Part shown: one piece after another, positions 8,520 through 19,843 of the stretch
How the letters are laid out: each line of letters opens with the position of its first letter
Numbering within the stretch: the stretch's first letter is position 1
Virus genome (UHGV): UHGV-0150885
Source: a virus
Direction: 5' to 3' (one strand)
Length of the DNA: 57,380 nt
Made by a program: the position numbers and the translations under genes
Notes under the pieces: generated by a model
Database searches by the model: none
Seen by the model: only the letters and a program-made list of their open reading frames with translations
Told to the model about the DNA's origin: nothing

Positions 8520-8621
8520 TTATGGATTGACTAGAAGGAACAAACCGCCGAACAAGGCGACGTTAACAGCGATTGCCGCAGCGATGGCAAAAGCCAGGGC
8601 GAAAACGTGTTTACCGTCCAT
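8520..8621 (-). CDS. Tiny hydrophobic peptide (33 aa)
   Basis: MDGKHVFALAFAIAAAIAVNVALFGGLFLLVNP; AGAGAGG-like SD; below ORF-track cutoff. Confidence 0.25.
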   Translation of the reverse strand: MDGKHVFALAFAIAAAIAVNVALFGGLFLLVNP

Positions 8622-8745: not shown

Positions 8746-9858
8746 TCATGATGGTATATGTTGGAAGTTACGCGTCTTGCGGAGCGTTTCCGGCTTCAAC
8801 AGAAAATCTATATCAGCCAGCCAGCCGCTTTCATTCTCACCGAAATAGAAGTTCGGCGCATCAGCTTTAAATTTCTGGAAGTAAGCAATAAAGCTGTCAA
8901 CGCTTTTGTCTTTCAGGTAGTCAGATAGCGAATGGATCTTACGTTCAATATCCCGATCCAGTTCGGCAGGTGGTAACAGGCCGTCAAACGTGCTGTTAAA
9001 TGCTTCCACCACGTCGGCAGCGTTTACAGTAGCTGACAGCTTGCGCCATTGTTCAGCATCAGCCAGATACCCATCAAACTTAGTTACCCGGCAAATGTTA
9101 ACAGGCTTAGGCACTCCACCACGGCTACGCCATTGCGTCAAAGCCCACTCAATTACTAATGTGATCTCATCCTCCGTGTATGCCTTACGTGTTTTTGTTT
9201 CTGTCAGTAGTTCGATGAATGGCTTAGTATCACGACATTTGCATCCTGCCTTTTCGTTGTAGAAAGCCAGGCAACGCAATGCAGATTCGCTTATCTGAAA
9301 GTCACCGTCCTGATTGACTTCTTTTCTTTTTATATTTTTCTTTTCTTCTTCTGTTTCTATTTCTTCTTCTACTTCTACTTCTAATCCATGGTTGTGCCAT
9401 GGTTGTGCCATGGCTGCATCATGGTTGTGCCATGGTTTTTCTTTTTCTGTATCTGGTGAATTATTTACTTCCACTAAAGGATTATCTAACTTTTTATTTT
9501 TTTTGACGTTTAGCCTTTTAATTGCCTCTCTAAATTCGCTTTTTGACGAAGCCATTGATTGATCAAGTCTTTTTGCTAACGACAGGCATCTTACAACGCC
9601 ATGTGAGCAGTCGAACAAGCCAACTTCGATGAAGTATCTCATCATTTCTTCTACACGTTTCGGACTTGATCCTACGTTCCGGGCAATGATTCTTGCATCG
9701 TGTTTTAGTTCGAATGTCAGATTATGTTGATCTACTTCGTAGGCTATTAACTCGATGCAATACCAATAAAGCCCGTATCCTTCCAGGCCATAATCAAGCA
9801 AAACGTTTTGAAGTTTTTCATCGCGGTTCGCATCGCTATCATGCTTAAACCACTTCAT
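8746..9858 (-). CDS. Replication initiation/replisome organiser protein (O-like)
   Basis: 370 aa; N-terminal WFKHDSDANRDEKLQNVLLDYGLEGYGLYWYCIEL replisome-organiser-like domain; iterons inside; upstream of helicase. Confidence 0.65.
   Translation of the reverse strand: MKWFKHDSDANRDEKLQNVLLDYGLEGYGLYWYCIELIAYEVDQHNLTFELKHDARIIARNVGSSPKRVEEMMRYFIEVGLFDCSHGVVRCLSLAKRLDQSMASSKSEFREAIKRLNVKKNKKLDNPLVEVNNSPDTEKEKPWHNHDAAMAQPWHNHGLEVEVEEEIETEEEKKNIKRKEVNQDGDFQISESALRCLAFYNEKAGCKCRDTKPFIELLTETKTRKAYTEDEITLVIEWALTQWRSRGGVPKPVNICRVTKFDGYLADAEQWRKLSATVNAADVVEAFNSTFDGLLPPAELDRDIERKIHSLSDYLKDKSVDSFIAYFQKFKADAPNFYFGENESGWLADIDFLLKPETLRKTRNFQHIPS
9387..9435. repeat. Iteron-like 11-bp tandem repeats (CATGGTTGTGC x4.5) with adjacent pyrimidine-rich tract; candidate origin inside initiator gene
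   Basis: catggttgtgc catggttgtgc catggctgcat catggttgtgc catgg; encodes MAQPWHNH repeats. Confidence 0.6.
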
Positions 9859-9860
9859 TT

Positions 9861-10115
9861 CTATTCCTCCGGCAGCATTACCAGGTAAACGTCATTTACC
9901 GGGTAAGGGTTACAAATAAATCCTTTGTGTGTTAATCCGTTGATAGCAAGTATCACCGTACTTACAGGAATTTCACACATTTTTGCGATTTCTTGGTGTG
10001 ATACCCTGGCGTGGCGGCGATTATCTGCCTTTTCAGCCAGAGCCATTAAGACAAGTTTTTGAATCGGGCTGTTAAGTTCCACTTTCCAAGCCTCATTCAT
10101 CATGTGCATACTCAT
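9861..10115 (-). CDS. HTH DNA-binding protein (Cro/CII-like regulator or O N-terminal-like)
   Basis: 84 aa; VSHQEIAKMCEIPVSTVILAINGL HTH; AGGAG SD; first gene of leftward operon. Confidence 0.55.
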   Translation of the reverse strand: MSMHMMNEAWKVELNSPIQKLVLMALAEKADNRRHARVSHQEIAKMCEIPVSTVILAINGLTHKGFICNPYPVNDVYLVMLPEE

Positions 10116-10223
10116 TGTGTTTCTCCTATGGTTAAAATGAACGCGCGGGCGGGTATCCCATTAGCATTAGGTAGCAGTGATTGACCGCTCAACAGATCCC
10201 GCCGTTGCGTGATATTTGTTTTT

Positions 10224-10255
10224 CGCTTCGCAGCGACACCAGGTTTTTAAAGAGC
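10224..10255 (-). promoter_or_regulatory. nutR-like site (boxA GCTCTTTAAAAA + boxB hairpin CGCTGCGAAGCG) on leftward transcript
   Basis: Reverse complement reads GCTCTTTAAAAACC...CGC-TGCGAA-GCG; same boxA as two + strand nut sites. Confidence 0.4.
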
Positions 10256-10335
10256 TTTTAAGGTATGCGCCTTTTTGTGCTATTCCCTCATCTTTTTTCT
10301 TGCGTCTTTGCAAGTCCGGCTTTACCTTGTCTGCA

Positions 10336-10363
10336 AGTTTACAGAATGGTGTTTTTCGGTCAA
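10336..10363 (-). promoter_or_regulatory. Candidate PR promoter (TTGACC -16- TAAACT) for leftward early operon
   Basis: Hexamers on - strand between cI start and first leftward gene. Confidence 0.4.
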
Positions 10364-10422
10364 GGCTTGAAAAATACATTTTGTGACTTGCATCAAACTT
10401 TTTAGGGCGATAGGGTAGCGAT

Positions 10423-11070
10423 ATGAAAACAAAATGGTATGACTTAGCAAAACAACTCATGCGGGCGCAAGGCATGAGCCAGGATTCATTGGCGGATCTC
10501 ATGGGGATCACAAAAGGCGGCTTATCTCACTGGCTGAATGGTCGCCGCGAGCCAAATCTTGAAGATATTGCGCGGATTATGCGGGCGCTTGGTCGTCGGC
10601 AGTTTACGGTCACTCATGACGGGATGGTTATCGATGATTCAGTTTCAAATACGTTGCCGGGAGCGCCGCCGCTCGACGTGGGACGTTATCCGGTTATTGA
10701 CTGGAAAGACGCAGGAAACTACATGGAAGAAGCAAAACGCGCATTACTACCACACGTTAACACGAGCGTGATTTGTTCGGATGATAGTTATTGGCTGGTC
10801 GCAAAAGGTGAGTCAATGAACGCACCGCAGGGATTAAGTATCCCGGCAGGGACGATGATACTTGTCGATCCGCACGCGCCAGCTATTGACGGCAAACTGG
10901 TTATAGCCCAACTGGAGGAAGGGCAAACGCCGACGTTTAAACAGTTAATCATTGATGGAGGTCAAAGGCTTTTACGTTCGCTTAATCCGCTGTACCCACC
11001 AATCCCGCTAAACCCTGAATCAAAAATTATTGGCGTGGTGGTGGATGCAAAGATCGTAAACCTGCCATAA
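10423..11070 (+). CDS. cI: CI-like repressor, HTH-XRE + LexA-like peptidase S24 domain
   Basis: 215 aa; N-term HTH (QDSLADLMGITKGGLSHWLNG); C-term S24 motifs (KGESM ... TFKQL). Confidence 0.85.
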   Translation: MKTKWYDLAKQLMRAQGMSQDSLADLMGITKGGLSHWLNGRREPNLEDIARIMRALGRRQFTVTHDGMVIDDSVSNTLPGAPPLDVGRYPVIDWKDAGNYMEEAKRALLPHVNTSVICSDDSYWLVAKGESMNAPQGLSIPAGTMILVDPHAPAIDGKLVIAQLEEGQTPTFKQLIIDGGQRLLRSLNPLYPPIPLNPESKIIGVVVDAKIVNLP

Positions 11071-11075
11071 ACATT

Positions 11076-11100
11076 AGCCGCCGGATGGCGGCTTTTCTTT
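11076..11100 (+). terminator. Rho-independent terminator after cI
   Basis: AGCCGCC-GGAT-GGCGGCT hairpin followed by TTTCTTT. Confidence 0.6.
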
Positions 11101-11180
11101 GCCCGGAAAGCACCAAAACGTAAACCGAAAACAGTTTTTATTGTTTGAATATCAATGAGATAGAAAATATTTTAAAAAAG

Positions 11181-11222
11181 TATACAAAATGGATTGACTC
11201 AACATATCACGGGGCGTATATT
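11181..11222 (+). promoter_or_regulatory. Candidate PL promoter: TATACAAAATGG box, -35 TTGACT, 17 bp, -10 TATATT
   Basis: Near-consensus sigma70 hexamers with 17-bp spacer upstream of nutL and N-like gene. Confidence 0.5.
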
Positions 11223-11267
11223 GCGAGTCAAAGGAGGGAAGGCAGTAGAAAAAAGGAAGTTTGAAAA

Positions 11268-11302
11268 TGCTCTTTAACAATCCGGTTGCACTGAAATGTG
11301 CA
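11268..11302 (+). promoter_or_regulatory. nutL-like site: boxA TGCTCTTTAACAA + boxB hairpin TGCAC-TGAAAT-GTGCA
   Basis: rrn-type boxA followed 7 nt later by 5-bp stem/6-nt loop hairpin, 30 bp upstream of N-like gene. Confidence 0.55.
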
Positions 11303-11332
11303 GACATAAATTTCAACTAAGGAAATAAGATT

Positions 11333-11623
11333 ATGAATGCGAAAATTACTTACGGTAACTGTGAGAGCAAACTTAACGCCCGCGCCCGCCGACGGATGAA
11401 ACGGGCAGCAGAGCAAGATGAAGGCCCGCACATACAGAAGGTTGATAGAGTGGAAAAAGCTATTCGCTTTGCAAATGAGGAAAAATGCGAACCAAATAGC
11501 GTTAAAGGACGTCGCAAGGGAGCAACAAAATGGTATCAGGAAAATGAAAGCGGCAACTACTTTCACGCAACGCAGCCGCGCCAGCTTGGGGAAAAACCCC
11601 TCGATAAAGTCCGATACCATTAA
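11333..11623 (+). CDS. N-like transcription antitermination protein
   Basis: 96 aa; N-terminal arginine-rich motif NARARRRMKRAAEQ like lambda/P22 N ARM; first gene after PL and nut. Confidence 0.6.
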   Translation: MNAKITYGNCESKLNARARRRMKRAAEQDEGPHIQKVDRVEKAIRFANEEKCEPNSVKGRRKGATKWYQENESGNYFHATQPRQLGEKPLDKVRYH

Positions 11624-11653
11624 TACATAACGTAAACAACAGGAGGTGACATT

Positions 11654-11776
11654 ATGGTTATCCAGGCGCTTCAATTCAAACTGGCGGTAGCGGAAATGCT
11701 TCACGATGCCGAAATGTGGAGCGCCGCGAATAAAGCCTTGTATGTGGTATTAACAGCGAAGGAGATTAAAGGGTGA
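11654..11776 (+). CDS. Small hypothetical protein (40 aa)
   Basis: Strong SD AGGAGGT 7 nt upstream; stop overlaps erf start (GTGA). Confidence 0.4.
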   Translation: MVIQALQFKLAVAEMLHDAEMWSAANKALYVVLTAKEIKG

Positions 11777-12414
11777 AAACAGAGCTACACAAGAAACTGT
11801 GGACGATTCAGCAGACGCTTAACGCGCCTAAGAATCAGCGTAATAACTTCGGGGGTTATAGCTATCGTTCAGCGGAGGATATTCTGGAAGCGGTTAAACC
11901 GCTACTTCAAAATGTCACACTAACGCTGAATGATGAAATTATCCTGATTGGTGAGCGTTATTACGTTAAAGCCACTGCGACATTAAGCGACGGCGAGGAC
12001 GCAATAGCGGTAACTGCTTACGCAAGGGAGGAAGAAAACAAGCGCGGTATGGATGCAAGCCAGCTAACAGGAGCAACATCAAGTTACGCGCGGAAATATG
12101 CCTTGAACGGTTTATTCTGCATAGACGACGCGAAAGACGCTGATACTGATGCTTATGCTAAACAGACAAATCAACAGCCACGCCAGCAGAAAAACCCGCC
12201 AAAACAACAACCGCAGCAGCAGAAAGCGCCACCAAATCCTGATGAAGTGTTAGCACGTTTCTGTGATGCGGCAGCGAAAGCGCCGGACGCGAACAAATTG
12301 CGCGAGATCTTCGGCAAGTGCTGGAAGCTACTGCCTAAAGATTCAGAACAACAACAAAAAGCGAAAGACGTTTATGACATTCGCTTAAAAGAGCTTAACG
12401 GGGAGATTAATTAA
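11773..12414 (+). CDS. erf: Erf-family single-strand annealing protein
   Basis: 213 aa; colinear with P22 Erf (NAPKNQ..YRSAEDILEAVKPLL, ERYYVKATAT, TGATSSYARKYALNGLF). Confidence 0.85.
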   Translation: MKTELHKKLWTIQQTLNAPKNQRNNFGGYSYRSAEDILEAVKPLLQNVTLTLNDEIILIGERYYVKATATLSDGEDAIAVTAYAREEENKRGMDASQLTGATSSYARKYALNGLFCIDDAKDADTDAYAKQTNQQPRQQKNPPKQQPQQQKAPPNPDEVLARFCDAAAKAPDANKLREIFGKCWKLLPKDSEQQQKAKDVYDIRLKELNGEIN

Positions 12415-12833
12415 TGAGTTTAAATTCAATCACGCTGGGCGGAAATATCGGAAACGACATGGAAATTCGCTACACGCAAAACGGAAAAGCGATTGGTAGT
12501 TTCTCGTTAGCTGTAACGAATGGCTACGGCGATAATAAGCGGACAATGTGGATCACTTGCCTGGTATTTGGTGAGCGTGCGGAAAAATTAGCGCCGCATA
12601 TCCGCAAGGGCGGAAAGATAGTGGTAAGCGGTCGCCTGGATGTTCGGCAATATGACCGGAACGACGGCACGAAGGGAACGGCTGTAGAAGTAGCGGTCAG
12701 TGAATTCGAATTCATGAACGTTAACCAGCAGGGCCAGCAGCAAGGCCAGCAGCAGAAAGCGCCGCCGCAGCAGCAGAATAATAACGGGAACAATCCTCCG
12801 CCGATGGACTTCGACGACGATATTCCTTTTTAG
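12414..12833 (+). CDS. ssb: Single-stranded DNA-binding protein
   Basis: 139 aa; OB-fold SSB motifs, Gln/Pro-rich tail ending DFDDDIPF. Confidence 0.85.
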   Translation: MSLNSITLGGNIGNDMEIRYTQNGKAIGSFSLAVTNGYGDNKRTMWITCLVFGERAEKLAPHIRKGGKIVVSGRLDVRQYDRNDGTKGTAVEVAVSEFEFMNVNQQGQQQGQQQKAPPQQQNNNGNNPPPMDFDDDIPF

Positions 12834-12849
12834 AATCAATAGGTTAGCG

Positions 12850-13128
12850 ATGGGTGATTATTTAAAACCGCCACCGCCGCCACGAACAAAAGAGCAAGTA
12901 TTAAAAGAAGCCCGCGATCAAATCGATCGGGGGCTTTTTTTATGTGGCACGGCAGCGGAACGAATGGCGAAAAGATTTAGTGACCTGTACGCAAAGCAAA
13001 TCTGGTTTGACAACTGGCAAGCGAGTTTTTACCCGCTGCAAAGAAAACCGGATATGCAGTGGCCTGAATATGTCGATCCACGTATGCGCAAATATCGCGG
13101 GCGTATGGGCCAGGTTATTAACGATTAA
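12850..13128 (+). CDS. Hypothetical protein (92 aa)
   Basis: ORF track; same-strand operon context. Confidence 0.5.
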   Translation: MGDYLKPPPPPRTKEQVLKEARDQIDRGLFLCGTAAERMAKRFSDLYAKQIWFDNWQASFYPLQRKPDMQWPEYVDPRMRKYRGRMGQVIND

Positions 13129-13140
13129 TGAGGTATCGAA

Positions 13141-13394
13141 TCATGACAGCTACAACATTAAGCGAAAATAACGGCAGAGGTTTTCAGAGGACTGCGGAAA
13201 GTCTTGATGATAGTGACGTCTTTATTGATTTCGGCGGCGGTAACTATGAATTCGAAACGTCTGCGGGGTGGGTGGATAAATGGCCTTTCCCTACTCGCCA
13301 GGAATTAAGTAACCGTAAATCATTTGGCGAAGACGCCGAACGTCTGGCGAATAATAAATGGCTTGATAAATTCATTGCGGAGGGTGGCAAATGA
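13141..13394 (+). CDS. Hypothetical protein (~84 aa)
   Basis: Start MTATTLSEN with GAGGTA SD. Confidence 0.5.
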
Positions 13395-13504
13395 ATCTCG
13401 CAAAAATTGCCGCATTGCTCGCGGCGGTAGCAGTGGCGGTGCTGTATCTCAGTGTTTCGCTTTATATCACGGTGGCGATCATCAAACTGATTACTAATAT
13501 GTGA
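13391..13504 (+). CDS. Tiny hydrophobic peptide (37 aa)
   Basis: MNLAKIAALLAAVAVAVLYLSVSLYITVAIIKLITNM; ATGA start/stop overlap with upstream gene. Confidence 0.4.
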   Translation: MNLAKIAALLAAVAVAVLYLSVSLYITVAIIKLITNM

Positions 13505-13512
13505 GGCCAATT

Positions 13513-13632
13513 ATGAAAGTCGGTAAGGATATTGTAAGGGTTGCGTTTTGCGTTATTTGCTTCCTGTTTACGGTTGTGTTTTGCGGCGCACTGGCGGCGG
13601 TGATTAGCTTTATTGGTAAGGGGTTAATGTGA
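13513..13632 (+). CDS. Tiny hydrophobic peptide (39 aa)
   Basis: MKVGKDIVRVAFCVICFLFTVVFCGALAAVISFIGKGLM; stop overlaps next ORF start. Confidence 0.4.
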   Translation: MKVGKDIVRVAFCVICFLFTVVFCGALAAVISFIGKGLM

Positions 13633-13904
13633 TGATGATTTGGGATGCAAAGGCGGGTGATCTCGTTGTTTTGCCTGCATATCGTAGTGATCCTGGCCTG
13701 GTCGTGCTGAATAAAACATGTAGCGATCTTGAACGACCGTTACTTGTTCAATATTTAGATGGCACGCTGATCGAGCCGCGCTACTTCGATAGTATCGTAC
13801 TAACGGCCCGCAATGTTCGTGTTAAGCCGTTCCGGGCTTATGTTGAAAACCACTGGCGGCGGTTGTTCGCTGGTCTAAATGGGATGTTCGGCGTATGGCT
13901 ATAA
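13629..13904 (+). CDS. Hypothetical protein (91 aa)
   Basis: ORF track; coupled to neighbours. Confidence 0.5.
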   Translation: MMMIWDAKAGDLVVLPAYRSDPGLVVLNKTCSDLERPLLVQYLDGTLIEPRYFDSIVLTARNVRVKPFRAYVENHWRRLFAGLNGMFGVWL

Positions 13905-14077
13905 AATTGGTGAAGGTTAAAGACCTGAAAGGCGGTGAGAAGATCCGCGCGTGGTGGGGATATGAATTTATTGCTACTGCCTTTTATTTCGGGCCAGGGG
14001 GTCAGGTAACAATATTCGATGAAGATTACGACGAGGTAGGCCAATGGCATCTTGAACAATATGTCGAGGTGTTATAA
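13895..14077 (+). CDS. Hypothetical protein (60 aa)
   Basis: ORF track. Confidence 0.45.
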   Translation: MAIKLVKVKDLKGGEKIRAWWGYEFIATAFYFGPGGQVTIFDEDYDEVGQWHLEQYVEVL

Positions 14078-14410
14078 ATGAAAATTAAATTCCACAAAGC
14101 GTATGACGCTAACACAAACAAGCTATCTCTATTCATTGAATTCGAACGCCGGATCGTGTGTGTGCCGTGGGCGCGTCGCTTCAATGATGCTGGCGGGCGG
14201 CGACAATTTGCGGTAGATATGCTGTTACGTGGCTGTGGCCTTATGCGTCCGCTATCTGATTTAAAACGAATGATGCCGGGATCGTTCGGTCAGATTGACG
14301 AAATGGAAATAAGCCCGGAAGAACTGAAACGGGAGCGTGATTTATTCCTTTCAAGCGAAGGAAACCCGTTCAATCCAGAAACTGAAATGAAATGGCATCA
14401 TCCACTATAA
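14078..14410 (+). CDS. Hypothetical protein (110 aa)
   Basis: ORF track. Confidence 0.5.
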   Translation: MKIKFHKAYDANTNKLSLFIEFERRIVCVPWARRFNDAGGRRQFAVDMLLRGCGLMRPLSDLKRMMPGSFGQIDEMEISPEELKRERDLFLSSEGNPFNPETEMKWHHPL

Positions 14411-14421
14411 GGATAAATATT

Positions 14422-15042
14422 ATGAACAATATCAAAACAGCTTATTCACTCGGCAGCGACGGCATGTTAATCACTCGCTACGCGGAGGACGCAAGTTTTC
14501 ATGAAGTGGAAACGAAGGATTATCACGAAGTATTAAAAGATATGAACGCTGGCGCGTATGACGCCGATTTAAACCTGGCGCTACAGATTGTTGATATTAT
14601 GATGGATGCATCAATCCGCGATTACGTTGATTTAAGCCTGGAAGAAAAAACAGATATTGCGCGTTATGTGTTCTGCCTTTCTTTTGTAAAACGCATGGAG
14701 GAAGAATTCGGACGCGTACCAGTACCGGAGGAAGTTGATCCGCTCGCGTTCGGAAGTGCTGTTATTTTCCCGTTAAGTAAGGATCAGTTCGGTAGTGCTT
14801 CACTGCATTGTATGCGCGAACTGATGAAAGGCATCTTTGAGGTTAAGATGTTACAGAAATTTGTTGAGGAAGGACACGAAGAAGTGAACGTTAAGGCGTT
14901 TATTCCGGTGCTTTACGGAAATTTCGTTGGCGATGATATGCGAGCTAATGAATTAGGCGTACAGGCGGCTATCGCTGTGCTTAATGATGCACGGAAAAAC
15001 GCACAGCCTATTCATGAGCCGGAAAAACGCGTACTTCATTAA
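14422..15042 (+). CDS. Hypothetical protein (~206 aa)
   Basis: ORF track; start MNNIKTAY. Confidence 0.55.
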   Translation: MNNIKTAYSLGSDGMLITRYAEDASFHEVETKDYHEVLKDMNAGAYDADLNLALQIVDIMMDASIRDYVDLSLEEKTDIARYVFCLSFVKRMEEEFGRVPVPEEVDPLAFGSAVIFPLSKDQFGSASLHCMRELMKGIFEVKMLQKFVEEGHEEVNVKAFIPVLYGNFVGDDMRANELGVQAAIAVLNDARKNAQPIHEPEKRVLH

Positions 15043-15141
15043 CAGCGTGATTGCGATCACATAAATATACATTTTGTCTTGTCCTGCTGTATCCGTTTTG
15101 TAAACTTAAATCGAAAGGTATACAGAACGGAGGGCGGGAAA

Positions 15142-15324
15142 ATGACAAACTTTGAACGTAACCACAAAAGCAAACTAAACCCGCACTTCATCATTGAGCG
15201 CACGTTAGGCGGACTATTCGCGATTCTGGTCCCGGCGGCGGCTGTAATGCTCGTTTACATGATCATTGACCTGATTATCAAAGCCTTCAACAACGGGATC
15301 TGTATGTACGCGGTTTGCTATTAG
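15142..15324 (+). CDS. Small membrane protein (60 aa)
   Basis: Start MTNFERN with GGAGGG SD; one TM helix (LGGLFAILVPAAAVMLVYMII). Confidence 0.45.
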   Translation: MTNFERNHKSKLNPHFIIERTLGGLFAILVPAAAVMLVYMIIDLIIKAFNNGICMYAVCY

Positions 15325-15328
15325 CGGG

Positions 15329-15553
15329 GTGGATATGGAAAACCAAATCATGCTGCATTGCGTAGAGGGTGGCGTAGGTCCGGGCGCTTACGTCGCCGGG
15401 CGGAAATATCCGGCAAACGAAGTGTTAAGCCACGAACAATGGCGGGAGGACGCTTATCACGTAACTGTATGGGGCGCGGAAGTCCAGGGTGTCGAGATGA
15501 TTGGTATCGAGCAATATCTTGGAAAATTCGATTATGGCTTACTGGAGGCGTGA
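15329..15553 (+). CDS. Hypothetical protein (74 aa)
   Basis: ORF track. Confidence 0.45.
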   Translation: MDMENQIMLHCVEGGVGPGAYVAGRKYPANEVLSHEQWREDAYHVTVWGAEVQGVEMIGIEQYLGKFDYGLLEA

Positions 15554-15555
15554 TT

Positions 15556-15654
15556 ATGTGGCTGATTGATTTAATCCTGGGTTGTTGGTTGTTCGCCCTG
15601 GTTGGCTTTGTTTGTTATTTCGCCTGGGAAGAAGGAAAACACAATGGACGCTGA
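15556..15654 (+). CDS. Tiny hydrophobic peptide (32 aa)
   Basis: MWLIDLILGCWLFALVGFVCYFAWEEGKHNGR; GGAGG SD. Confidence 0.35.
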   Translation: MWLIDLILGCWLFALVGFVCYFAWEEGKHNGR

Positions 15655-15733
15655 ATTGATGTTTATGGCTTGTTGCTGGGGGATCGTAATGGTCGGTTTG
15701 TTTCTCCGCTGGGTGATTGAAAAATATTTGTGA
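15644..15733 (+). CDS. Tiny hydrophobic peptide (29 aa)
   Basis: MDAELMFMACCWGIVMVGLFLRWVIEKYL; overlaps previous ORF end. Confidence 0.35.
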   Translation: MDAELMFMACCWGIVMVGLFLRWVIEKYL

Positions 15734-15741
15734 GGCTGAAT

Positions 15742-15936
15742 ATGAAAAAGGTTGGTGGCTATACATTACCGGACAACGCCAAATTAGCCGGGATTGGTTT
15801 TAGTGGCTGTTATTACTACAACAATATAGGCGATGTTTATTGCGTGCGCTTTGTCGATGGTGTACAGCATTTTCGCAGGCTACCAGATGTTGAATTGAGC
15901 AAACTTATCCGGGAGGTATCGTTACATGCGGTTTAA
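15742..15936 (+). CDS. Hypothetical protein (64 aa)
   Basis: ORF track; start MKKVGG with GAGG SD. Confidence 0.45.
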   Translation: MKKVGGYTLPDNAKLAGIGFSGCYYYNNIGDVYCVRFVDGVQHFRRLPDVELSKLIREVSLHAV

Positions 15937-16129
15937 ACATTACAGAGAATGGAAAATTCCAGAAGCAGCAACAAAGGCCGCACCTGGTAATTTTTCGGGC
16001 GTTTATTTTTACATGGATGGCAAATGGTATTTCGGCAGCAGGCCGGATCACTATTATCAGGAAATGTGTATGCCTCATGTGTGGGATATTAAAGAGCGCG
16101 TGAAAGGCGGGGTGATTGAGGACGTTTAA
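15926..16129 (+). CDS. Hypothetical protein (67 aa)
   Basis: ORF track. Confidence 0.45.
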   Translation: MRFKHYREWKIPEAATKAAPGNFSGVYFYMDGKWYFGSRPDHYYQEMCMPHVWDIKERVKGGVIEDV

Positions 16130-16366
16130 ATGTTAAGAGAACTGTTTCATTTCTTGGGGGCGTGGCTTTTAGCCGCGCTTTTTGTTTTCCTGGGGTGCAC
16201 TGTCATTATTGCTGTTTTGATTGTCGGTGCAATGTTTATCACATGGTCGCTTCCTGATATTCGACCGTGGGCGGAATTGTTTTTTGGTGTACGCGTGCTA
16301 ATCGCTTTTAGTGTTTTCATGGGTTTTTGTTGGGCTGCCGCACCTGATTGGGATGATCCGTGGTGA
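16130..16366 (+). CDS. Small membrane protein (78 aa, 2 TM helices)
   Basis: ORF track; hydrophobic throughout. Confidence 0.45.
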   Translation: MLRELFHFLGAWLLAALFVFLGCTVIIAVLIVGAMFITWSLPDIRPWAELFFGVRVLIAFSVFMGFCWAAAPDWDDPW

Positions 16367-16370
16367 TTAT

Positions 16371-16604
16371 ATGGCTTTATTCAACCTGTCAGAGCCGCAA
16401 TTTAACGCCGTTAAAACTGCTGCCCGCGCGGCGCTTTCTGCCTGCAAAGCGGAGGTAGAAAGAAACGGCTATAGCGATAAAGCCACGCGGCTGATACTCG
16501 ATAGGCATTATCGCAAGGTCGCCCCGCTAATCAGTATTGAGCGGTTTGTGTGGTTGGTGGGGTATTTAAACAACCGCTGGGGGACGGAACAGGATTATTT
16601 TTAA
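16371..16604 (+). CDS. Hypothetical protein (~77 aa)
   Basis: ORF track; start MALFNLSEPQ. Confidence 0.45.
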   Translation: MALFNLSEPQFNAVKTAARAALSACKAEVERNGYSDKATRLILDRHYRKVAPLISIERFVWLVGYLNNRWGTEQDYF

Positions 16605-16613
16605 GGGGGTATA

Positions 16614-17147
16614 ATGAAAAATGATTACGGCGGCAGCCACACGCCGAAGGAAATTAAGGATCTCTGGCAAACGCCGAAGCCCGTATTTAGAGGAATGGAT
16701 CGGGAATTCGAATTCGTCGCCGATGTGGCGGCAAACAAGGCAAACGCATTAGTTCCGCGATATATAACCGAAGAAATGAACACACTACATTATCCGTGGG
16801 GAGCGGTGGCGATGCCTGGTGAGTATGTCTGGATGAATCCACCATATTCTAATCCGGGGCCATTCGTTGATAAGGCGGCACTTGAGCACCATCAAAATCA
16901 TATCGGATGTGTAATGTTATTGCCCGCTGATATTTCTGTTAACTGGTTTATGAACGGCCTGGAAACGGCAAACGAATGTCGCTTGATCACGCGCGGGCGG
17001 CTGGCGTTTATTAATGCTGCGACTGGTAAGCCAGCGAGCGGGAACAATAAGGGTAGCTTGTTCTTGATCTGGCATCCACGATGCAGGCATGAATGTATTT
17101 TCACGCAGATAACACGTAAAGAGCTATATGCAAGAGGTGCAGAATAA
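16614..17147 (+). CDS. dam: Phage DNA N6-adenine methyltransferase (Dam-like)
   Basis: 177 aa; catalytic NPPY motif (WMNPPYS) and overall phage Dam-family layout. Confidence 0.8.
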   Translation: MKNDYGGSHTPKEIKDLWQTPKPVFRGMDREFEFVADVAANKANALVPRYITEEMNTLHYPWGAVAMPGEYVWMNPPYSNPGPFVDKAALEHHQNHIGCVMLLPADISVNWFMNGLETANECRLITRGRLAFINAATGKPASGNNKGSLFLIWHPRCRHECIFTQITRKELYARGAE

Positions 17148-17638
17148 TGACTAAGGCAGCAGATTTATTAAGACTCGCAGCGGAAACCATAGAGCAAAGA
17201 GGTAAGCAAAACGGCTACGACAAAAAAGAGGAAAAATCAGCGCCAAAAATAGCCACTATTTACAACGCTAAGAAGGGAGCCGATTTAACCCCGCTTGATG
17301 TATGGGATCTACTGATTTGCCTCAAAGAAGCGCGTTTAGGGGCCATTTTAAGCAACGGAACAGATCCGACAGACACGTTGATTGATTTGATTAGCTATAA
17401 CGCGCTAAAAGCAGAGCAAATATTAACGGATCGGGAGGAAGAACAAAGTAAGAAACAGGCTGTTTTTGATATGCCGTTAAATTGCGGCTGTAAAAAAACC
17501 TCGATACCAGGCGACCTGATCGCTAGTGGCGAAGTAATAATGAATGGTAGCCTCCAGCTTGGTAACGGCTGGCGGTTTAATAAAGAGGCTTTATTGTATT
17601 CACCGAAGGATCATAAAAATGAAAAGGGTGACAATTGA
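17147..17638 (+). CDS. Hypothetical protein; N-terminal domain resembles MazG-like/dNTP pyrophosphohydrolase-associated phage domain
   Basis: 163 aa; ETIEQRGKQNGYD...LTPLDVWDLLICLKEARL pattern; assignment from memory only. Confidence 0.5.
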   Translation: MTKAADLLRLAAETIEQRGKQNGYDKKEEKSAPKIATIYNAKKGADLTPLDVWDLLICLKEARLGAILSNGTDPTDTLIDLISYNALKAEQILTDREEEQSKKQAVFDMPLNCGCKKTSIPGDLIASGEVIMNGSLQLGNGWRFNKEALLYSPKDHKNEKGDN

Positions 17639-18122
17639 CAGGTTATTAGCCTGCGTTTATGTCGCCGTTTTTGTGATCATCAATCTTATTGTTAACCATT
17701 GCGGCCCGTGGGTAATTCCAGTCACCACGGTAGCCGCTGTGTGTGTCAATATGATGATCCGTGACTTCCTGTTATATGACGGCGGCCTGAAATGGTCGGC
17801 TACAACATGCGCTATAGCTGGCGCGATCACGGTGCTGATAAATTACGACGCCGGAATGGTGGCGATCGCGTCGTTTGTCGCGGTTGTTTCCGGTGCGCTT
17901 ATTTCTGGCGGCGTTTACCGGGTTTTACCTGGTGATTTCGATTCTAAACGCTGGCCTGCAAATATAGCGTCCGCCATTGGTGATGCGTTAATTTTTCCTA
18001 CGCTATCGTTTGTGGCATTTATGCCGGAAATATCAGCTATGCAATTCATCTCAAAAATGGCAGCGGTAACGGTGATTACTATCATCATGCGCCGCTATTT
18101 TACGTTTGAGGGCAGGAAATGA
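17619..18122 (+). CDS. Integral membrane protein (~167 aa, 4-5 TM helices)
   Basis: Start MKRVTIDR; multiple hydrophobic helices. Confidence 0.5.
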   Translation: MKRVTIDRLLACVYVAVFVIINLIVNHCGPWVIPVTTVAAVCVNMMIRDFLLYDGGLKWSATTCAIAGAITVLINYDAGMVAIASFVAVVSGALISGGVYRVLPGDFDSKRWPANIASAIGDALIFPTLSFVAFMPEISAMQFISKMAAVTVITIIMRRYFTFEGRK

Positions 18123-18883
18123 AAGGGCTTAGAAATTGGGTTGTGTGGTCGCTGTACGACGGCAGCGGGTACGCCGTTAAGGATTGGGCGGAAGCTGGAT
18201 ATAAGTGCTATTGCTTCAACTATGACGGCGCTAATCACGGCGATTACGAAGGCGTAAAAATCATTCATCCGAATATCGAATACGTTAACGTATGGATTGA
18301 CAGCCATTTCCTGGTAATGTTCTCCCCTGAATTGTCTGTTTATCCAGATCCTGACATTATCCTGGGCTTTCCTCCGTGCGACGATCTCGCGGTATCCGGC
18401 GCTCGCTGGTTTGCTGATAAGCGGAAGAAAGATCCTTACTTTCAGCAGAAAGCAGCGTACAACGCAAAGTTAGTAGAAATGCTGGCGAGTATGTATAACG
18501 TCCCGTGGATGGTGGAAAATCCGGTAGGCGCACTGTCAACGTTATGGCGTAAACCGGATTTTATCTTTAATCCGTGCGCTTACGGTGGCTACCTGCCGGA
18601 AGATGATAAACATCCTGCTTTCCCGGAATACATCGCCGACCGCGACGCCTACACGAAGAAAACATGTATCTGGTGTGGGAATGGATTTAAACAGCCGCTA
18701 TTCCGGCCTGTACCGATGCCGGATGAATGGGAAGATAGTAAGCAGCACGCGAAGTTGGGCGGAAAGTCGAAGCGCACTAAGATGATCCGCTCACTAACGC
18801 CGCGCGGCTTTGCCCGTGCTGTATTCCTGGCTAACGACCGGGCAATCACTCGCACTACGCTTAACCGTGTTTTACCGGATTGA
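18119..18883 (+). CDS. C5-cytosine methyltransferase-like protein, compact, with atypical PCD motif
   Basis: 254 aa; motif I-like LYDGSGYAVKDWAEAGY, motif IV-like GFPPCDDLAVSGA (PCQ to PCD), motif VI-like MVENPVGAL. Confidence 0.6.
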   Translation: MKGLRNWVVWSLYDGSGYAVKDWAEAGYKCYCFNYDGANHGDYEGVKIIHPNIEYVNVWIDSHFLVMFSPELSVYPDPDIILGFPPCDDLAVSGARWFADKRKKDPYFQQKAAYNAKLVEMLASMYNVPWMVENPVGALSTLWRKPDFIFNPCAYGGYLPEDDKHPAFPEYIADRDAYTKKTCIWCGNGFKQPLFRPVPMPDEWEDSKQHAKLGGKSKRTKMIRSLTPRGFARAVFLANDRAITRTTLNRVLPD

Positions 18884-18885
18884 TG

Positions 18886-18964
18886 TTTACAAAATGGCGT
18901 CATTGTGTGATGAGCGTCACATAATGGCGCTTTTCATCTTGTCCGGGCGTATCCATTTTGTATA
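18886..18964. promoter_or_regulatory. Regulatory region: inverted TTTACAAAATGG / CCATTTTGTATA boxes flanking a perfect CRP-consensus-like palindrome TGTGATGAGCGTCACA
   Basis: Palindrome at 18906-18921; boxes at 18886-18897 and 18953-18964. Confidence 0.4.
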
Positions 18965-18979
18965 CTGCAATCAAACGAA

Positions 18980-19013
18980 ATGCTCTTTAAAAACCTGGCC
19001 CCGCTGAAATGCG
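18980..19013 (+). promoter_or_regulatory. Second + strand nut-like site: boxA TGCTCTTTAAAAA + boxB hairpin CCGC-TGAAAT-GCGG
   Basis: Same boxA and identical loop TGAAAT as nutL; upstream of ninG-rusA-Q block. Confidence 0.5.
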
Positions 19014-19046: not shown

Positions 19047-19223
19047 ATGAACGATGATAGGTACGCGTGGCATGACGACTACGAGCGCGAATGCGTAATG
19101 CGGGCAATGTGCAATTTATGTAACCCCGACAAAGGAGATTGTAACGAGTGCAACAAATGCGTAGATCATTGGCTAAGGGCCGGAGCCGCCGCAAAGCCGA
19201 ACGAAATCGAATATCGAAAATAA
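19047..19223 (+). CDS. Small cysteine-rich protein (58 aa), NinF-like position
   Basis: GAAGGAG SD; CxxC pairs (CNLCNP..CNECNKC); immediately upstream of ninG. Confidence 0.45.
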   Translation: MNDDRYAWHDDYERECVMRAMCNLCNPDKGDCNECNKCVDHWLRAGAAAKPNEIEYRK

Positions 19224-19237
19224 TTGGGGTGGACTTT

Positions 19238-19843
19238 ATGCAAAACCCTAAAAAACCCATAAGACGCCGTTGCAAGTGCTGCGGCGTTTTTTTTGAGCCT
19301 AAATATCACAACCAGACGTGGTGCAGTGACGAATGCCTGGAAGAATTGAAATTTGACCAGCTATGCCGCGACCGTGAGAAGGCTATGAAGGCTATGGAAC
19401 GGAAGAAACGCCGTGATAGCCAGCGGGAAGAACGCAACCGGAAGCGTAAACAGTTAAATCCGCGTAGTTATTGGATCAAACAAGTTCAAAATGTATTCAA
19501 TGCCTATATCCGCGAACGTGATGCGCGGTTGCCGTGTATATCCTGCGGGACTTACTACGGTGAGCAATGCGGGTGGGATGCAGGCCACTACAGAACGGTT
19601 GCCGCCGCCGGACACCTTCGCTTTAACGAGGATAATTGCCATAAACAATGCAGGCACTGCAACCAGACATTAGACGGAAACATAGGAGGGTATCGCCCGG
19701 CACTGATTCGAAAAATTGGCCTCGCTAGGGTGGTAGCACTGGAGAACAACAACGATACGCATAAATGGACGATCGCAGAATGTAAGGAGTTAATAAACAT
19801 CTATCAGGCGAAATTGGACGCCTTAAGGAGAAAGGCAGCATGA
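19238..19843 (+). CDS. ninG: NinG/Rap recombination protein
   Basis: Colinear with lambda NinG (RRRCK..C..F.P....WCS.EC, PRSYWIKQ, LPCISCGT, WDAGHYRT, LRFNE, HKQC..CNQ, RWTI.ECK). Confidence 0.85.
   Translation: MQNPKKPIRRRCKCCGVFFEPKYHNQTWCSDECLEELKFDQLCRDREKAMKAMERKKRRDSQREERNRKRKQLNPRSYWIKQVQNVFNAYIRERDARLPCISCGTYYGEQCGWDAGHYRTVAAAGHLRFNEDNCHKQCRHCNQTLDGNIGGYRPALIRKIGLARVVALENNNDTHKWTIAECKELINIYQAKLDALRRKAA

What the first reader, a model, noticed from the sequence alone, without database searches (positions are those of the whole stretch)
10224..19013. Three nut-like sites with rrn-type boxA and an N-like ARM protein
The motif (T)GCTCTTTAA[AC]AA, matching bacterial rrn boxA, occurs at 11268-11280 (+), 18980-18992 (+) and 10242-10255 (- strand). 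Each is followed within 6-10 nt by a short hairpin with a 6-nt loop (TGAAAT in both + strand sites, TGCGAA on the - strand). The gene 30 bp after the first site starts with an arginine-rich motif NARARRRMKRAAEQ like lambda/P22 N. The second + strand site lies 7.7 kb downstream, just before ninG-rusA-Q, suggesting a second antitermination entry point on the same strand.
Basis: partly seen in the sequence, partly recalled or inferred. Interest (0 to 1): 0.55.

Follow-up and report, generated by a model that had tools for sequence, protein, structure and literature searches.

The report
Known phage N-like antitermination system

Summary
GCTCTTTAAMAA occurs exactly three times (10255-10244 minus strand; 11269-11280 and 18982-18993 plus strand). 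Each copy is followed 6-7 nt later by a short hairpin.

- **Site count.** A covariance model built only from relatives finds exactly these three sites in 57 kb (50.6-59 bits; the next hit is 9.9 bits).
- **Hairpins.** Stems covary across 46 related loci. Loops are GNRA tetraloops (GAAA, GCGA) closed by U.U or U-A.
- **Identity of the phage.** The window is 84-86% identical to E. coli phages mEp021, mEp515 and others (the 'mEpimmI' group).
- **The protein.** The 96-aa protein at 11333-11623 is 72% identical to mEp021 Gp17, and all three sites are syntenic with mEp021 nutL, nutR1 and nutR2.
- **Prior publication.** PMC11893012, citing Valencia-Toxqui 2023, reports that Gp17 is the N-lambda-like early antiterminator acting on these three nut sites, conserved in 48 genomes. 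Those genomes include prophages carrying this window's allele.

Verdict: correct reading, already known, low interest.

Beyond the published account as far as I could read it:
- Gp17 is a remote homologue of P22 gp24.
- nutR2 sits 9 nt downstream of a conserved promoter-like element. That element shares a 14-bp motif (CCATTTTGTAWACT) with pL, so nutR2 may have its own promoter.

The parts
10336..10363 (-). pL-like early leftward promoter: TTGACC, 16 nt, TAAACT
   Evidence: Consensus scan. The -35 and -10 are invariant in 23 variants while the spacer varies. The -10 lies inside the motif CCATTCTGTAAACT.
10244..10255 (-). nutL boxA GCTCTTTAAAAA
   Evidence: Syntenic with mEp021 nutL.
10223..10236 (-). 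nutL boxB hairpin UCGCU-GCGA-AGCGA (GNRA tetraloop)
   Evidence: Relatives carry GUGA or GCAA loops.
8746..10115 (-). First genes of the leftward operon downstream of nutL: an HTH/replication-initiator N-terminal-domain protein (9861-10115) and a Lin1244-type replication protein (8746-9858)
   Evidence: Pfam HTH_36 and Lin1244_N. PHROG replication initiation protein. mEp021 gp14/gp13 annotation.
10423..11070 (+). CI-like immunity repressor (HTH_3 plus Peptidase_S24) lying between nutL and pR; context only
   Evidence: Pfam. mEp021 gp15 'putative repressor'. Function shown for Rep021 in PMC11893012.
11076..11093 (+). Terminator-like hairpin after the repressor gene, upstream of pR
   Evidence: Equivalent to mEp021 TERM_1.
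11194..11222 (+). pR-like early rightward promoter: TTGACT, 17 nt, TATATT (10 of 12)
   Evidence: The inferred start near 11229 places boxA about 40 nt downstream.
11269..11280 (+). nutR1 boxA GCTCTTTAACAA (with the preceding T, identical to rrn boxA)
11287..11302 (+). nutR1 boxB hairpin UGCAC-UGAAAU-GUGCA
   Evidence: Compensatory changes to GCUAC/GUAGC in L003 and L046.
11333..11623 (+). Gp17-like N-type antiterminator, 96 aa, ARM at residues 15-28
   Evidence: 72% identical to mEp021 Gp17. PHROG 271 'anti-termination protein N-like', E 3.8e-9. P22 gp24 pairwise E 2e-4.
16156..16182 (+). Terminator-like hairpin (12-bp stem plus T-run) inside the rightward operon between nutR1 and nutR2
   Evidence: It lies inside a possible small ORF, so function is uncertain.
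18896..18931 (+). t4-like hairpin after the methyltransferase gene; contains TGTGA-N6-TCACA at 18906-18921
   Evidence: Stem conserved and loop variable in 36 variants. Equivalent to mEp021 TERM_4.
18939..18966 (+). Candidate promoter immediately upstream of nutR2: TTGTCC, 16 nt, TATACT. The -10 lies inside CCATTTTGTATACT.
   Evidence: 9 of 12, not above chance on its own. The conservation pattern is promoter-like. Same motif as at pL and at starts of + strand units.
18982..18993 (+). nutR2 boxA GCTCTTTAAAAA
19001..19014 (+). nutR2 boxB hairpin CCGC-UGAAAU-GCGG
   Evidence: The first pair is C-G, A-U or G.U in relatives.
19047..21148 (+). Genes downstream of nutR2: ninF-like (19047-19223), ninG (to 19843), rusA (19840-20247) and the Q-type late antiterminator (20426-21148)
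   Evidence: Pfam NinG, RusA, Antiterm. PHROG 30170. mEp021 gp34-gp37.
19268..19286 (+). Terminator-like hairpin plus T8 downstream of nutR2, within the 5' end of ninG
   Evidence: Function not shown.
8544..8561 (-). Terminator-like hairpin in the leftward operon downstream of nutL (intergenic)
   Evidence: Function not shown.

Best explanation
This is the early, N-type processive antitermination system of an mEpimmI-group (mEp021-like) temperate coliphage.

**Proposed mechanism.**
1. Host RNA polymerase starts at the divergent early promoters pL (about 10330, minus strand) and pR (about 11229, plus strand).
2. It transcribes a nut site within 40-75 nt of each start. Each nut site is an rrn-type boxA (GCUCUUUAAMAA) followed 6-7 nt later by a short boxB hairpin with a GNRA tetraloop.
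3. The first gene of the pR transcript encodes the 96-aa Gp17-like protein.
4. Its arginine-rich motif (residues 15-28) binds the boxB loops, while boxA recruits host NusB/NusE.
5. With NusA and NusG this converts the polymerase into a termination-resistant form.

**Consequences.** Leftward, the modified polymerase reads into the replication genes. Rightward, it reads through the erf/ssb/methylase block. The third site, nutR2, lies 7.7 kb downstream just before ninF-ninG-rusA-Q. It loads or reloads the factor so that Q is made and late transcription follows.

**Shown here.** The sites, their count, their conservation and covariation, orthology of the protein and of all three sites to mEp021, and remote homology to P22 gp24.

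**Taken from the literature for the orthologue.** Gp17-dependent antitermination at the three sites and Nus dependence of the group.

**Inferred.** That the window's allele behaves the same way, which terminators are overridden, and how nutR2 is reached.
For: - **Sites.** There are exactly three boxA matches. There are exactly three boxA+boxB sites by covariance models, including one built without window sequences.
- **boxB.** Stems covary. Loops always fit GNRA: GAAA, GCGA, GUGA, GCAA.
- **Conservation.** The three sites are kept at syntenic positions in mEp021 and in 45 IMG/VR loci.
- **Relationship to mEp phages.** The window is 84-86% identical to mEp021, mEp515, mEp554, mEp044, mEp010 and mEp013 and has the same gene order.
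- **Protein.** 72% identical to Gp17, with R17, R19, R20 and R24 invariant. PHROG 271 'anti-termination protein N-like' at E 3.8e-9. Similarity to P22 gp24 covers the ITYG motif, the ARM and a DRVxKAI motif.
- **Nut similarity.** P22 nutL boxA is CGCTCTTTAAC and its boxB stem is GCGCU/AGCGC, which resemble the sites here.
- **Promoters.** pL and pR lie just upstream of nutL and nutR1.
- **Terminator-like hairpins** lie downstream of each site.
- **Literature.** PMC11893012 section 3.5 and Discussion report that Gp17 mediates early antitermination on nutL, nutR1 and nutR2, conserved in 48 genomes. That set includes the STEC306-308 and RM9245 prophages, which carry the window-type allele.
Against: - No experiment exists for this particular phage or allele.
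- Its ARM differs from mEp021 (ARARRRMKRAAEQ against ARERRRIKRENER), and its nutR1 boxB differs (UGAAAU loop against UGGAAGU in mEp021).
- Hairpin energies are unremarkable.
- The Pfam N_peptide match is below the gathering score (17.1 against 27.9 bits).
- No PDB relative was found by profile search.
- Several predicted terminators lie inside ORFs, so which ones matter is unknown.
- A promoter-like element between t4 and nutR2 means nutR2 need not be reached from pR.
- The primary paper (Arch Virol 168:92) could not be read.
Confidence: 0.9

Rival explanations
1. nutR2 is not, or not only, a reloading point for polymerases coming from pR. It belongs to a third self-contained promoter-nut module. 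A sigma-70-type promoter at 18939-18966 would start transcription about 9 nt upstream of boxA, so Q expression could begin at an internal, separately regulated promoter and still need Gp17.
For: - TTGTCC, 16 nt, TATACT lies at 18939-18966.
- Across 36 sequence variants the -35 (CTTGT) and GTATCCATTTTGTATACT are conserved. The 5' half of the spacer, the t4 loop and the linker between t4 and the -35 vary.
- The -10 sits inside CCATTTTGTAWACT, the motif that also contains the pL -10.
- The same motif recurs syntenically in mEp021 and the window at the starts of + strand units that follow reverse-oriented cassettes.
- The core TACAAAATGG is enriched: 22 matches against 5.5 expected.
- The pL, pR and candidate modules align as promoter, leader, boxA, boxB.
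- A terminator-like hairpin (t4) lies just upstream.
Against: - The number of promoter-like matches in the region is not above chance (19 against 22.6 expected).
- The motif could be a protein-binding site rather than a promoter.
- There are no transcript data.
- From my memory of the abstract of Valencia-Toxqui 2023, which I could not verify here, the authors conclude that polymerase reads through to nutR2 from upstream.
- The two routes are not mutually exclusive.
Confidence: 0.35
2. The sites work as rrn-type antiterminators using host factors only (NusA, NusB, NusE, NusG, SuhB on boxA). The hairpins and the arginine-rich protein would be irrelevant to them.
For: - nutR1 boxA with its leading T equals the rrn boxA consensus TGCTCTTTAACAA (consensus from established knowledge; sequence).
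- The boxA elements are better matches to rrn boxA than P22 nutR's CGCTCTTTACC, and, from memory, than lambda's CGCTCTTA.
Against: - The hairpin follows boxA, as in lambda and P22 nut. In rrn leaders it precedes boxA (established knowledge).
- The hairpin stems covary and the loops stay GNRA, so they are under selection.
- The adjacent gene is an N-like ARM protein.
- For mEp021 the literature reports that antitermination requires Gp17 (PMC11893012).
Confidence: 0.04
3. The Gp17-like protein is a Nun-type exclusion factor. It would bind boxB-like hairpins of competing phages to arrest their transcription, rather than promote the phage's own.
For: ARM proteins of the N family include HK022 Nun, which terminates instead of antiterminating (established knowledge). 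The gene is small and sits next to the immunity region.
Against: - The gene lies downstream of pR, behind the repressor-controlled early promoter region, not in the lysogenic transcript.
- The phage itself carries three cognate sites in front of essential operons.
- The literature reports an antitermination function for the orthologue.
Confidence: 0.02
4. Chance motif occurrences with no function.
For: Each hairpin alone is thermodynamically ordinary.
Against: - 0 of 100 shuffles reach the observed motif count.
- The three sites score 50-59 bits against 9.9 for the next hit, with an independent model.
- The sites are conserved with covariation in 46 loci.
Confidence: 0.01

Closest known systems
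mEp021 Gp17 with nutL, nutR1 and nutR2 (mEpimmI coliphages; Valencia-Toxqui et al. 2023, Arch Virol 168:92; PMC11893012)
   Same: - Orthologous 96-aa protein, 72% identical, with the same conserved arginines.
- The same three sites at the same syntenic positions.
- nutL boxB identical and nutR2 loop identical.
- Same flanking genes: repressor, erf, ssb, methyltransferases, ninF, ninG, rusA, Q.
   Different: - **N-terminal allele.** The first 40 residues, including the ARM flanks, are only about 55% identical (counted). This allele is shared with L002, L003 and L046 and with 5 of 5426 complete E. coli genomes.
- **nutR1.** Here it is a perfect rrn boxA with a UGAAAU-loop hairpin. mEp021 has GCTCATTAACAA and GCCGC-UGGAAGU-GCGGC.
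- **Missing insert.** The window lacks the roughly 215-bp insert (gp16 plus a boxA-like GCACTTTAAAAA) that mEp021 carries between pR and nutR1.
Salmonella phage P22 gp24 (N) with nutL and nutR
   Same: - Remote protein homology over the ITYG motif, the ARM (NAKTRRHERRRKLAIE against NARARRRMKRAAEQ) and DRVxKAI.
- boxA CGCTCTTTAAC followed by boxB.
- P22 nutL boxB stem GCGCU/AGCGC resembles nutL UCGCU/AGCGA here.
- P22 nutR has a C.C-closed loop, analogous to the U.U closure here.
   Different: - P22 boxB has GACAA pentaloops; here the loops are GNRA tetraloops.
- P22 has two nut sites, and gene 24 is in the leftward operon opposite to Q. Here there are three sites and the N-like gene is on the same strand as Q.
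- Similarity is too weak for BLAST against the phage collection. The nut model does not hit P22.
Phage lambda N with nutL and nutR
   Same: Same logic. An ARM protein binds a boxB hairpin that follows boxA on the nascent early transcripts. It depends on Nus factors and allows read-through to Q. (Established knowledge for lambda; the group's Nus dependence is from PMC11893012.)
   Different: - No significant sequence match: Pfam N_peptide is below threshold and there is no PDB hit.
- In lambda, cro precedes nutR and N is leftward. Here nutR1 directly precedes the N-like gene, with no cro-like gene between pR and nutR1.
- Three sites instead of two.
- rrn-type boxA instead of lambda's shorter boxA.
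E. coli rrn operon antitermination (boxB-boxA-boxC)
   Same: boxA sequence identical at nutR1 (TGCTCTTTAACAA; consensus from established knowledge). It is presumably the same NusB/NusE binding site.
   Different: The hairpin is downstream of boxA, not upstream. There is no rRNA context. A phage ARM protein is involved.

Membership tests
mEpimmI Gp17 / three-nut early antitermination system (archetype mEp021) | Gp17 orthologue of about 96 aa with an ARM in which R17, R19, R20 and R24 are conserved | tested here: met
   72% identity over 96 of 96 residues. N15, A16, R17, R20 and R24 invariant; R19 and R21 at least 90% conserved.
mEpimmI Gp17 / three-nut early antitermination system (archetype mEp021) | Three nut sites at fixed positions: nutL reading leftward upstream of the repressor gene, nutR1 just upstream of gp17, nutR2 between the cytosine methyltransferase gene and ninF/ninG | tested here: met
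mEpimmI Gp17 / three-nut early antitermination system (archetype mEp021) | Genome similarity and synteny with mEpimmI phages | tested here: met
   84-86% DNA identity to six mEp phages. About 75% of the first 25 kb is covered at 86-88% identity by E. coli prophages. 45 related IMG/VR loci, one of them with an identical protein.
mEpimmI Gp17 / three-nut early antitermination system (archetype mEp021) | Gp17-dependent read-through of terminators and dependence on host Nus factors | not testable with these tools
   Reported for mEp021 and the group in PMC11893012. Not tested for this allele.
Lambda/P22 N-nut processive antitermination | Small basic protein with an N-terminal arginine-rich RNA-binding motif | tested here: met
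   NARARRRMKRAAEQ at residues 15-28.
Lambda/P22 N-nut processive antitermination | nut site made of boxA followed by a boxB hairpin, transcribed shortly after an early promoter | tested here: met
   boxA, then 6-7 nt, then hairpin at all three sites. pL and pR lie 40-75 nt upstream of nutL and nutR1.
Lambda/P22 N-nut processive antitermination | boxB is a 5-bp stem with a pentaloop that folds like a GNRA tetraloop | tested here: not met
   Here boxB is a 4-5 bp stem with true GNRA tetraloops (GAAA, GCGA) closed by U.U or U-A. This is related to the pentaloop design but not the same. The three-dimensional fold was not tested.
Lambda/P22 N-nut processive antitermination | Sequence membership in the N protein family | tested here: inconclusive
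   PHROG 271 N-like at E 3.8e-9. P22 gp24 BLASTP E 2e-4 and hhalign E 3.6e-4 with probability 37%. Pfam PF25694 at 17.1 bits against a cut-off of 27.9, with 20 of 22 members hitting below threshold. No PDB hit.
Lambda/P22 N-nut processive antitermination | Two nut sites, with the N gene in the leftward operon, opposite to the operon that carries Q | tested here: not met
   Three sites. The N-like gene and Q are on the same strand, 9 kb apart.
Lambda/P22 N-nut processive antitermination | NusA-binding and RNA-polymerase-binding regions in the C-terminal two thirds | not testable with these tools
   The C-terminal 56 residues are highly conserved in the family (84% identical to mEp021, against about 55% for residues 1-40). 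This fits a host-interaction module but does not show one.
rrn operon antitermination | boxA consensus TGCTCTTTAACAA | tested here: met
   13 of 13 at nutR1; 12 of 13 at nutR2; 11 of 13 at nutL. The consensus is from established knowledge.
rrn operon antitermination | Hairpin upstream of boxA, boxC downstream, rRNA leader or spacer context, no phage protein needed | tested here: not met
   The hairpin is downstream of boxA. The context is a phage early region. No rRNA or any Rfam family was found in the window.

The most novel reading that the evidence does not exclude
Each of the three nut sites may be the leader of its own promoter. In that case nutR2 is not a mid-operon reloading site but part of a third early promoter-nut module (TTGTCC, 16 nt, TATACT at 18939-18966).

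The -10 of this candidate promoter lies inside a phage-wide 14-bp element, CCATTTTGTAWACT. The same element contains the pL -10 and also marks other transcription-unit starts. The candidate promoter is flanked by a second, inverted copy of the element. It also lies next to a palindrome with CRP half-sites (TGTGA-N6-TCACA, centred about 60 nt upstream of the inferred start).

If this is right, expression of the late activator Q would combine a separately regulated promoter with Gp17-dependent antitermination.
Probability: 0.3. Interest if true: 0.4.

Novelty: already known. Interest (0 to 1): 0.15.

Why it matters
It matters little as a discovery. The three-nut, Gp17-dependent antitermination system has been described experimentally for mEp021 and bioinformatically for 48 genomes of the group, including prophages with this allele.

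It is useful as annotation. RefSeq and GenBank call the gene 'hypothetical protein' in nearly all records.

Three modest points go beyond what I could read in the literature:
- Gp17 is remotely homologous to P22 gp24, and its nut sites resemble P22's, but with true GNRA tetraloops.
- The RNA-binding N-terminus and nutR1 travel together as an allelic cassette, while nutL and nutR2 stay constant.
- nutR2 lies directly behind a conserved promoter-like element shared with pL. This bears on why this phage group needs a third nut site.

Tried and rejected
- **Primary paper.** Arch Virol 168:92 (PMID 36795170) is not held. Its content is cited only through PMC11893012, or marked as memory.
- **Representative genomes.** Two scans of one genome per species for Gp17 relatives found nothing. 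The family is absent from representative genomes, and every source-named hit in the large protein set is from E. coli; the rest are unnamed metagenome or virus sequences (48 clusters).
- **Rfam.** No family at gathering score in the whole window, and only chance-level hits around the nut sites. No tRNA.
- **PDB.** A profile search with the Gp17 family gave no hit even at E 10.
- **tblastn against 50,697 phage records.** Only the seven mEp-type phages match; no P22 or lambda N.
- **Folding energies.** The three hairpins are not distinguishable from shuffles, so energy alone cannot support them. Covariation does.
- **First combined alignments.** A2 and A3 put some stems out of register. I re-aligned on the hairpin only (A4).
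- **Profile search of 1.84 billion representatives**. It found only the family itself, a fragment and one distant 115-aa relative (P0051). Two large HYR-repeat surface proteins (P0050, P0052) also matched. I regard these as spurious repeat or composition matches.
- **Specificity switch between Gp17 alleles.** I considered that allele and boxB type co-vary as a specificity switch and rejected it as a full explanation. Only nutR1 differs, and nutR1 is physically linked to the gene's 5' end. nutL and nutR2 are the same in both allele groups.
- **Structure prediction.** Not run. N-type proteins are largely disordered, so a model would not have been decisive.

Full report
**Observation.** The motif GCTCTTTAAMAA has exactly three perfect matches in the 57,380-base window: 10244-10255 on the minus strand, and 11269-11280 and 18982-18993 on the plus strand. 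At up to one mismatch there are 5 matches against 0.79 expected, and none of 100 shuffles reaches 5.

Reading the sequence gives three sites of the same design:
- nutL (minus strand): A-GCTCTTTAAAAA, spacer CCTGGTG, UCGCU-GCGA-AGCGA (10255 down to 10223).
- nutR1: T-GCTCTTTAACAA, spacer TCCGGT, UGCAC-UGAAAU-GUGCA (11268-11302).
- nutR2: T-GCTCTTTAAAAA, spacer CCTGGCC, CCGC-UGAAAU-GCGG (18981-19014).

Its minus-strand 'TGCGAA loop' is better read as a GCGA tetraloop closed by U-A. Otherwise the description is accurate.

The ORF at 11333-11623 starts 30 nt after the nutR1 hairpin and encodes 96 aa, with NARARRRMKRAAEQ at residues 15-28. Downstream of the third site lie a ninF-like ORF, NinG, RusA and a Q-type antiterminator (Pfam; PHROG).

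**Are the hairpins more than chance?** ViennaRNA predicts each hairpin, but the energies are ordinary (z -0.8 to -1.2). Comparative evidence decides the question.

I collected mEp021 (L001) and 45 IMG/VR loci that encode relatives of the protein. Every locus that reaches far enough has the three sites at the same relative positions.

On 16 distinct boxB variants aligned on the hairpin (A4):
- 4 of the 6 proposed pairs show changes on both sides.
- The outer core pair occurs as C-G, U-A, G.U, A-U and G-C.
- The covariation score is 0.349 against 0.108 +/- 0.029 in shuffles (0 of 500 reach it).
- Slid-partner controls are at most 0.099.

The four loop residues are GAAA, GCGA, GUGA or GCAA, all GNRA.

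A covariance model built only from relatives (A7, model R2) finds exactly three sites in the window at 59.0, 53.7 and 50.6 bits, with the next hit at 9.9 bits (E 0.3). A model that included the window rows gave the same picture. So there are three real, selected boxA-boxB sites, and no fourth.

**What the window is.** Positions 9800-12300 match six E. coli phages of the Mexican 'mEp' collection (mEp021, mEp515, mEp554, mEp044, mEp010, mEp013) and phage MagusPhagus at 84-86% identity. The first 25 kb match E. coli prophages at 86-88% over about 75% of the length. One IMG/VR contig encodes an identical protein with the same site spacing (L002).

The mEp021 annotation shows the same order. Leftward: HTH/replication genes. 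Then the CI-like repressor. Rightward: gp17, erf, ssb, other genes, methyltransferases, ninF, ninG, a Holliday junction resolvase and Q.

The window protein is 72% identical to mEp021 gp17 over all 96 residues.

**What is published.** PMC11893012 (Front Microbiol 2025; read) describes the 'mEpimmI' group. These are Nus-dependent, non-lambdoid temperate coliphages with a single immunity type.

Section 3.5 and the Discussion of that paper state, citing Valencia-Toxqui et al. 2023 (Arch Virol 168:92):
- Gp17 is an N-lambda-like protein responsible for early antitermination in mEp021.
- It acts on three nut sites: nutL upstream of the repressor gene, nutR1 upstream of gp17, and nutR2 downstream of the methyltransferase gene.
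- gp17 and the three sites are present at similar positions in all 48 genomes analysed.
- Arginines 17, 19, 20 and 24 are fully conserved.
- nutR1 is the most variable site.

Their genome set includes the STEC306-308 and RM9245 prophages. These are among the five complete E. coli genomes that carry the window-type gp17/nutR1 allele.

The primary 2023 paper is not in the held library. From memory of its abstract, it used nut-terminator-GFP constructs, ARM mutants, a gp17 deletion phage and nus mutant hosts. It concluded that polymerase reads through to nutR2 more than 7.9 kb downstream of nutR1. I could not verify this here.

**Mechanism.** The consensus scan finds pR (TTGACT, 17 nt, TATATT, 11194-11222) and pL (TTGACC, 16 nt, TAAACT, 10363-10336 on the minus strand). 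The hexamers are conserved and the spacers vary among relatives. This puts nutR1 about 40 nt and nutL about 75 nt into the early transcripts.

By analogy with lambda and P22 (established knowledge) and with mEp021 (literature):
- The ARM of the Gp17-like protein binds the boxB loops on nascent RNA.
- boxA binds NusB/NusE.
- With NusA and NusG the polymerase becomes termination-resistant.

Candidate intrinsic terminators downstream of the sites:
- Leftward: 8561-8544 and 5006-4978.
- Rightward: 16156-16182, 18896-18931 (the t4 equivalent), 19268-19286, 21984-22000 and 22733-22752.

Several of these lie in or at the edge of ORFs, and the mEp021 TERM_2 equivalent has lost its T-run here. Which terminators matter is therefore not established. 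Rho-dependent terminators cannot be predicted with these tools.

**Relation to classical N systems.**
- *Protein.* PHROG 271 'anti-termination protein N-like' matches residues 5-95 at E 3.8e-9. Pfam N_peptide matches 20 of 22 family members, always below threshold.
- *P22 gp24.* A direct comparison with P22 gp24, taken from BK000583, gives BLASTP E 2e-4 and hhalign E 3.6e-4. The aligned motifs are ITYG, the ARM and DRVxKAI.
- *P22 nut sites.* P22 nutL reads CGCTCTTTAAC-ttcgatgat-GCGCUGACAAAGCGC. P22 nutR has a C.C-closed GACAA loop. The boxA, the CGCU/AGCG stem and the non-canonical loop closure are therefore shared.
- *Differences.* The loops here are true tetraloops rather than pentaloops. 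There are three sites rather than two. The N-like gene lies on the same strand as Q, with no cro-like gene between pR and nutR1.
- *Breadth of the family.* It is very narrow: 48 clusters at 90% identity among 5.8 billion proteins, and every hit that carries a source name is from E. coli. None is found in one representative genome per species. A full HMMER pass over 1.84 billion representatives found one further distant relative (P0051, 115 aa).

**Variation within the family.** There are two main N-terminal alleles.
- MNAKI...AR[AKE]RRRMKRAAEQDEGP occurs in the window, L002, L003 and L046.
- M[TS]VTI...ARERRRIKRENERKSSP occurs in 41 loci, including mEp021.

Residues 1-40 are about 55% identical between the window and mEp021, and residues 41-96 about 84% (counted). 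The first allele always comes with a UGAAAU-loop nutR1 hairpin, and the second with GCCGC-UGGAAGU-GCGGC. nutL and nutR2 hairpins are the same in both groups.

nutR1 lies 30-90 nt from the gene's 5' end, so this is a linked cassette and not proof of a specificity change.

The window and L002 also lack a roughly 215-bp insert between pR and nutR1. In mEp021 and in L003/L046 that insert carries gp16 and a boxA-like GCACTTTAAAAA.

**How nutR2 is reached.** The 100 nt upstream of nutR2 look like a regulatory region and not a plain spacer. They contain:
- The t4-like hairpin (18896-18931).
- A promoter-like TTGTCC, 16 nt, TATACT (18939-18966), whose inferred start is about 9 nt before boxA.
- Two inverted copies of a 13-16 bp element, AGT[AT]TACAAAATGG(AT), at 18885-18897 and 18951-18966.

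In 36 sequence variants the hairpin stem, the -35 and GTATCCATTTTGTATACT are conserved. The hairpin loop, the linker and the 5' half of the spacer vary.

The reverse complement of the element, CCATTTTGTAWACT, contains the -10 hexamer. The same element contains the pL -10 and lies just upstream of the pR -35. In both mEp021 and the window it recurs syntenically upstream of + strand units that follow reverse-oriented cassettes in the tail region, and in divergent intergenic regions. Its core is enriched fourfold: 22 matches against 5.5 expected, with 0 of 100 shuffles reaching that. The pL, pR and candidate modules align as promoter, leader, boxA, boxB.

I therefore give about 0.35 to nutR2 having its own promoter, not excluding read-through from pR. 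The element could instead be an operator. The t4 palindrome also carries TGTGA-N6-TCACA, centred about 60 nt upstream of the inferred start. That is the class I position for CRP (established knowledge), but it may simply reflect the hairpin's symmetry. None of this is tested by transcript data.

**Verdict.** The system is the published Gp17 / nutL-nutR1-nutR2 antitermination system of mEpimmI coliphages, here in a minority allele. Novelty: already known. Interest: low (0.15). The open question worth a small experiment is whether nutR2 is fed by its own promoter.

Noticed in passing
window 6466-6475, 10337-10349, 10375-10387, 11179-11194, 15093-15102, 18885-18897, 18951-18966, 25166-25175, 38982-39046 (three copies), 41831, 42235-42244, 51530-51572 (two copies): A 13-16 bp element AGT[AT]TACAAAATGG (reverse complement CCATTTTGTAWACT, which contains a -10-like hexamer) is enriched: 22 matches at <=1 mismatch against 5.5 expected. 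It lies mostly in intergenic or promoter positions. These include pL, next to pR, before nutR2, and the junctions after reverse-oriented cassettes in the tail region. The copies are syntenic in mEp021. It could be a promoter class or an operator; this is not resolved.
   Followed up: partly
window 18906-18921: The t4-like hairpin upstream of nutR2 contains TGTGA-N6-TCACA, the CRP half-site consensus. It is centred about 60 nt upstream of the inferred start of the candidate promoter. GTGA...TCAC is kept in relatives while the 6-nt centre varies. It may be a CRP site or just the symmetry of the hairpin.
   Followed up: partly
window 11229-11332 compared with L001 10100-10452: The window (and L002) lacks a roughly 215-bp segment between pR and nutR1. 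In mEp021, L003 and L046 that segment carries a 37-aa ORF (gp16) and an extra boxA-like GCACTTTAAAAA. Only 5 of 5426 complete E. coli genomes match the window-type nutR1/gp17 segment over most of its length, and those matches are in two pieces.
   Followed up: partly
window 11333-11452 and nutR1 11287-11302; loci L001-L046: The Gp17 N-terminal third and the nutR1 hairpin form a linked allelic cassette. There are two main types, about 55% identical in residues 1-40. The C-terminal two thirds (KWYxENESGNYxHATQPRQLGEKPLDKVRYH) are nearly invariant, which fits a variable RNA-binding module joined to a conserved host-interaction module.
   Followed up: partly
window 10388-10425: TTGCAT, 17 nt, TAGGGT ends 7 nt before the ATG of the repressor gene (10423). 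The repressor mRNA may therefore be leaderless, as for lambda cI transcribed from pRM. This was read from the sequence only.
   Followed up: no
window 9861-10115 (minus strand): The first gene after nutL is an 84-aa HTH protein matching the N-terminal domain of phage replication initiators (PHROG 4617, E 2e-17), not a Cro. No cro-like gene lies between either early promoter and its nut site.
   Followed up: partly
protein P0051: P0051 is a 115-aa distant relative of Gp17 (E 1.4e-8). It has its own ARM (RAKHRRAMRRKELQRE) and the conserved C-terminal KWY...PLDRIRYN. It is the only other lineage found among 1.84 billion representatives. Its genomic context could not be looked up.
   Followed up: no
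window 13409-13425 and 16156-16182: Two terminator-like hairpins that correspond to terminators annotated in mEp021 lie inside small ORFs for hydrophobic peptides. The first has lost its T-run in the window (GGTAGC instead of TTTGTC).
   Followed up: partly
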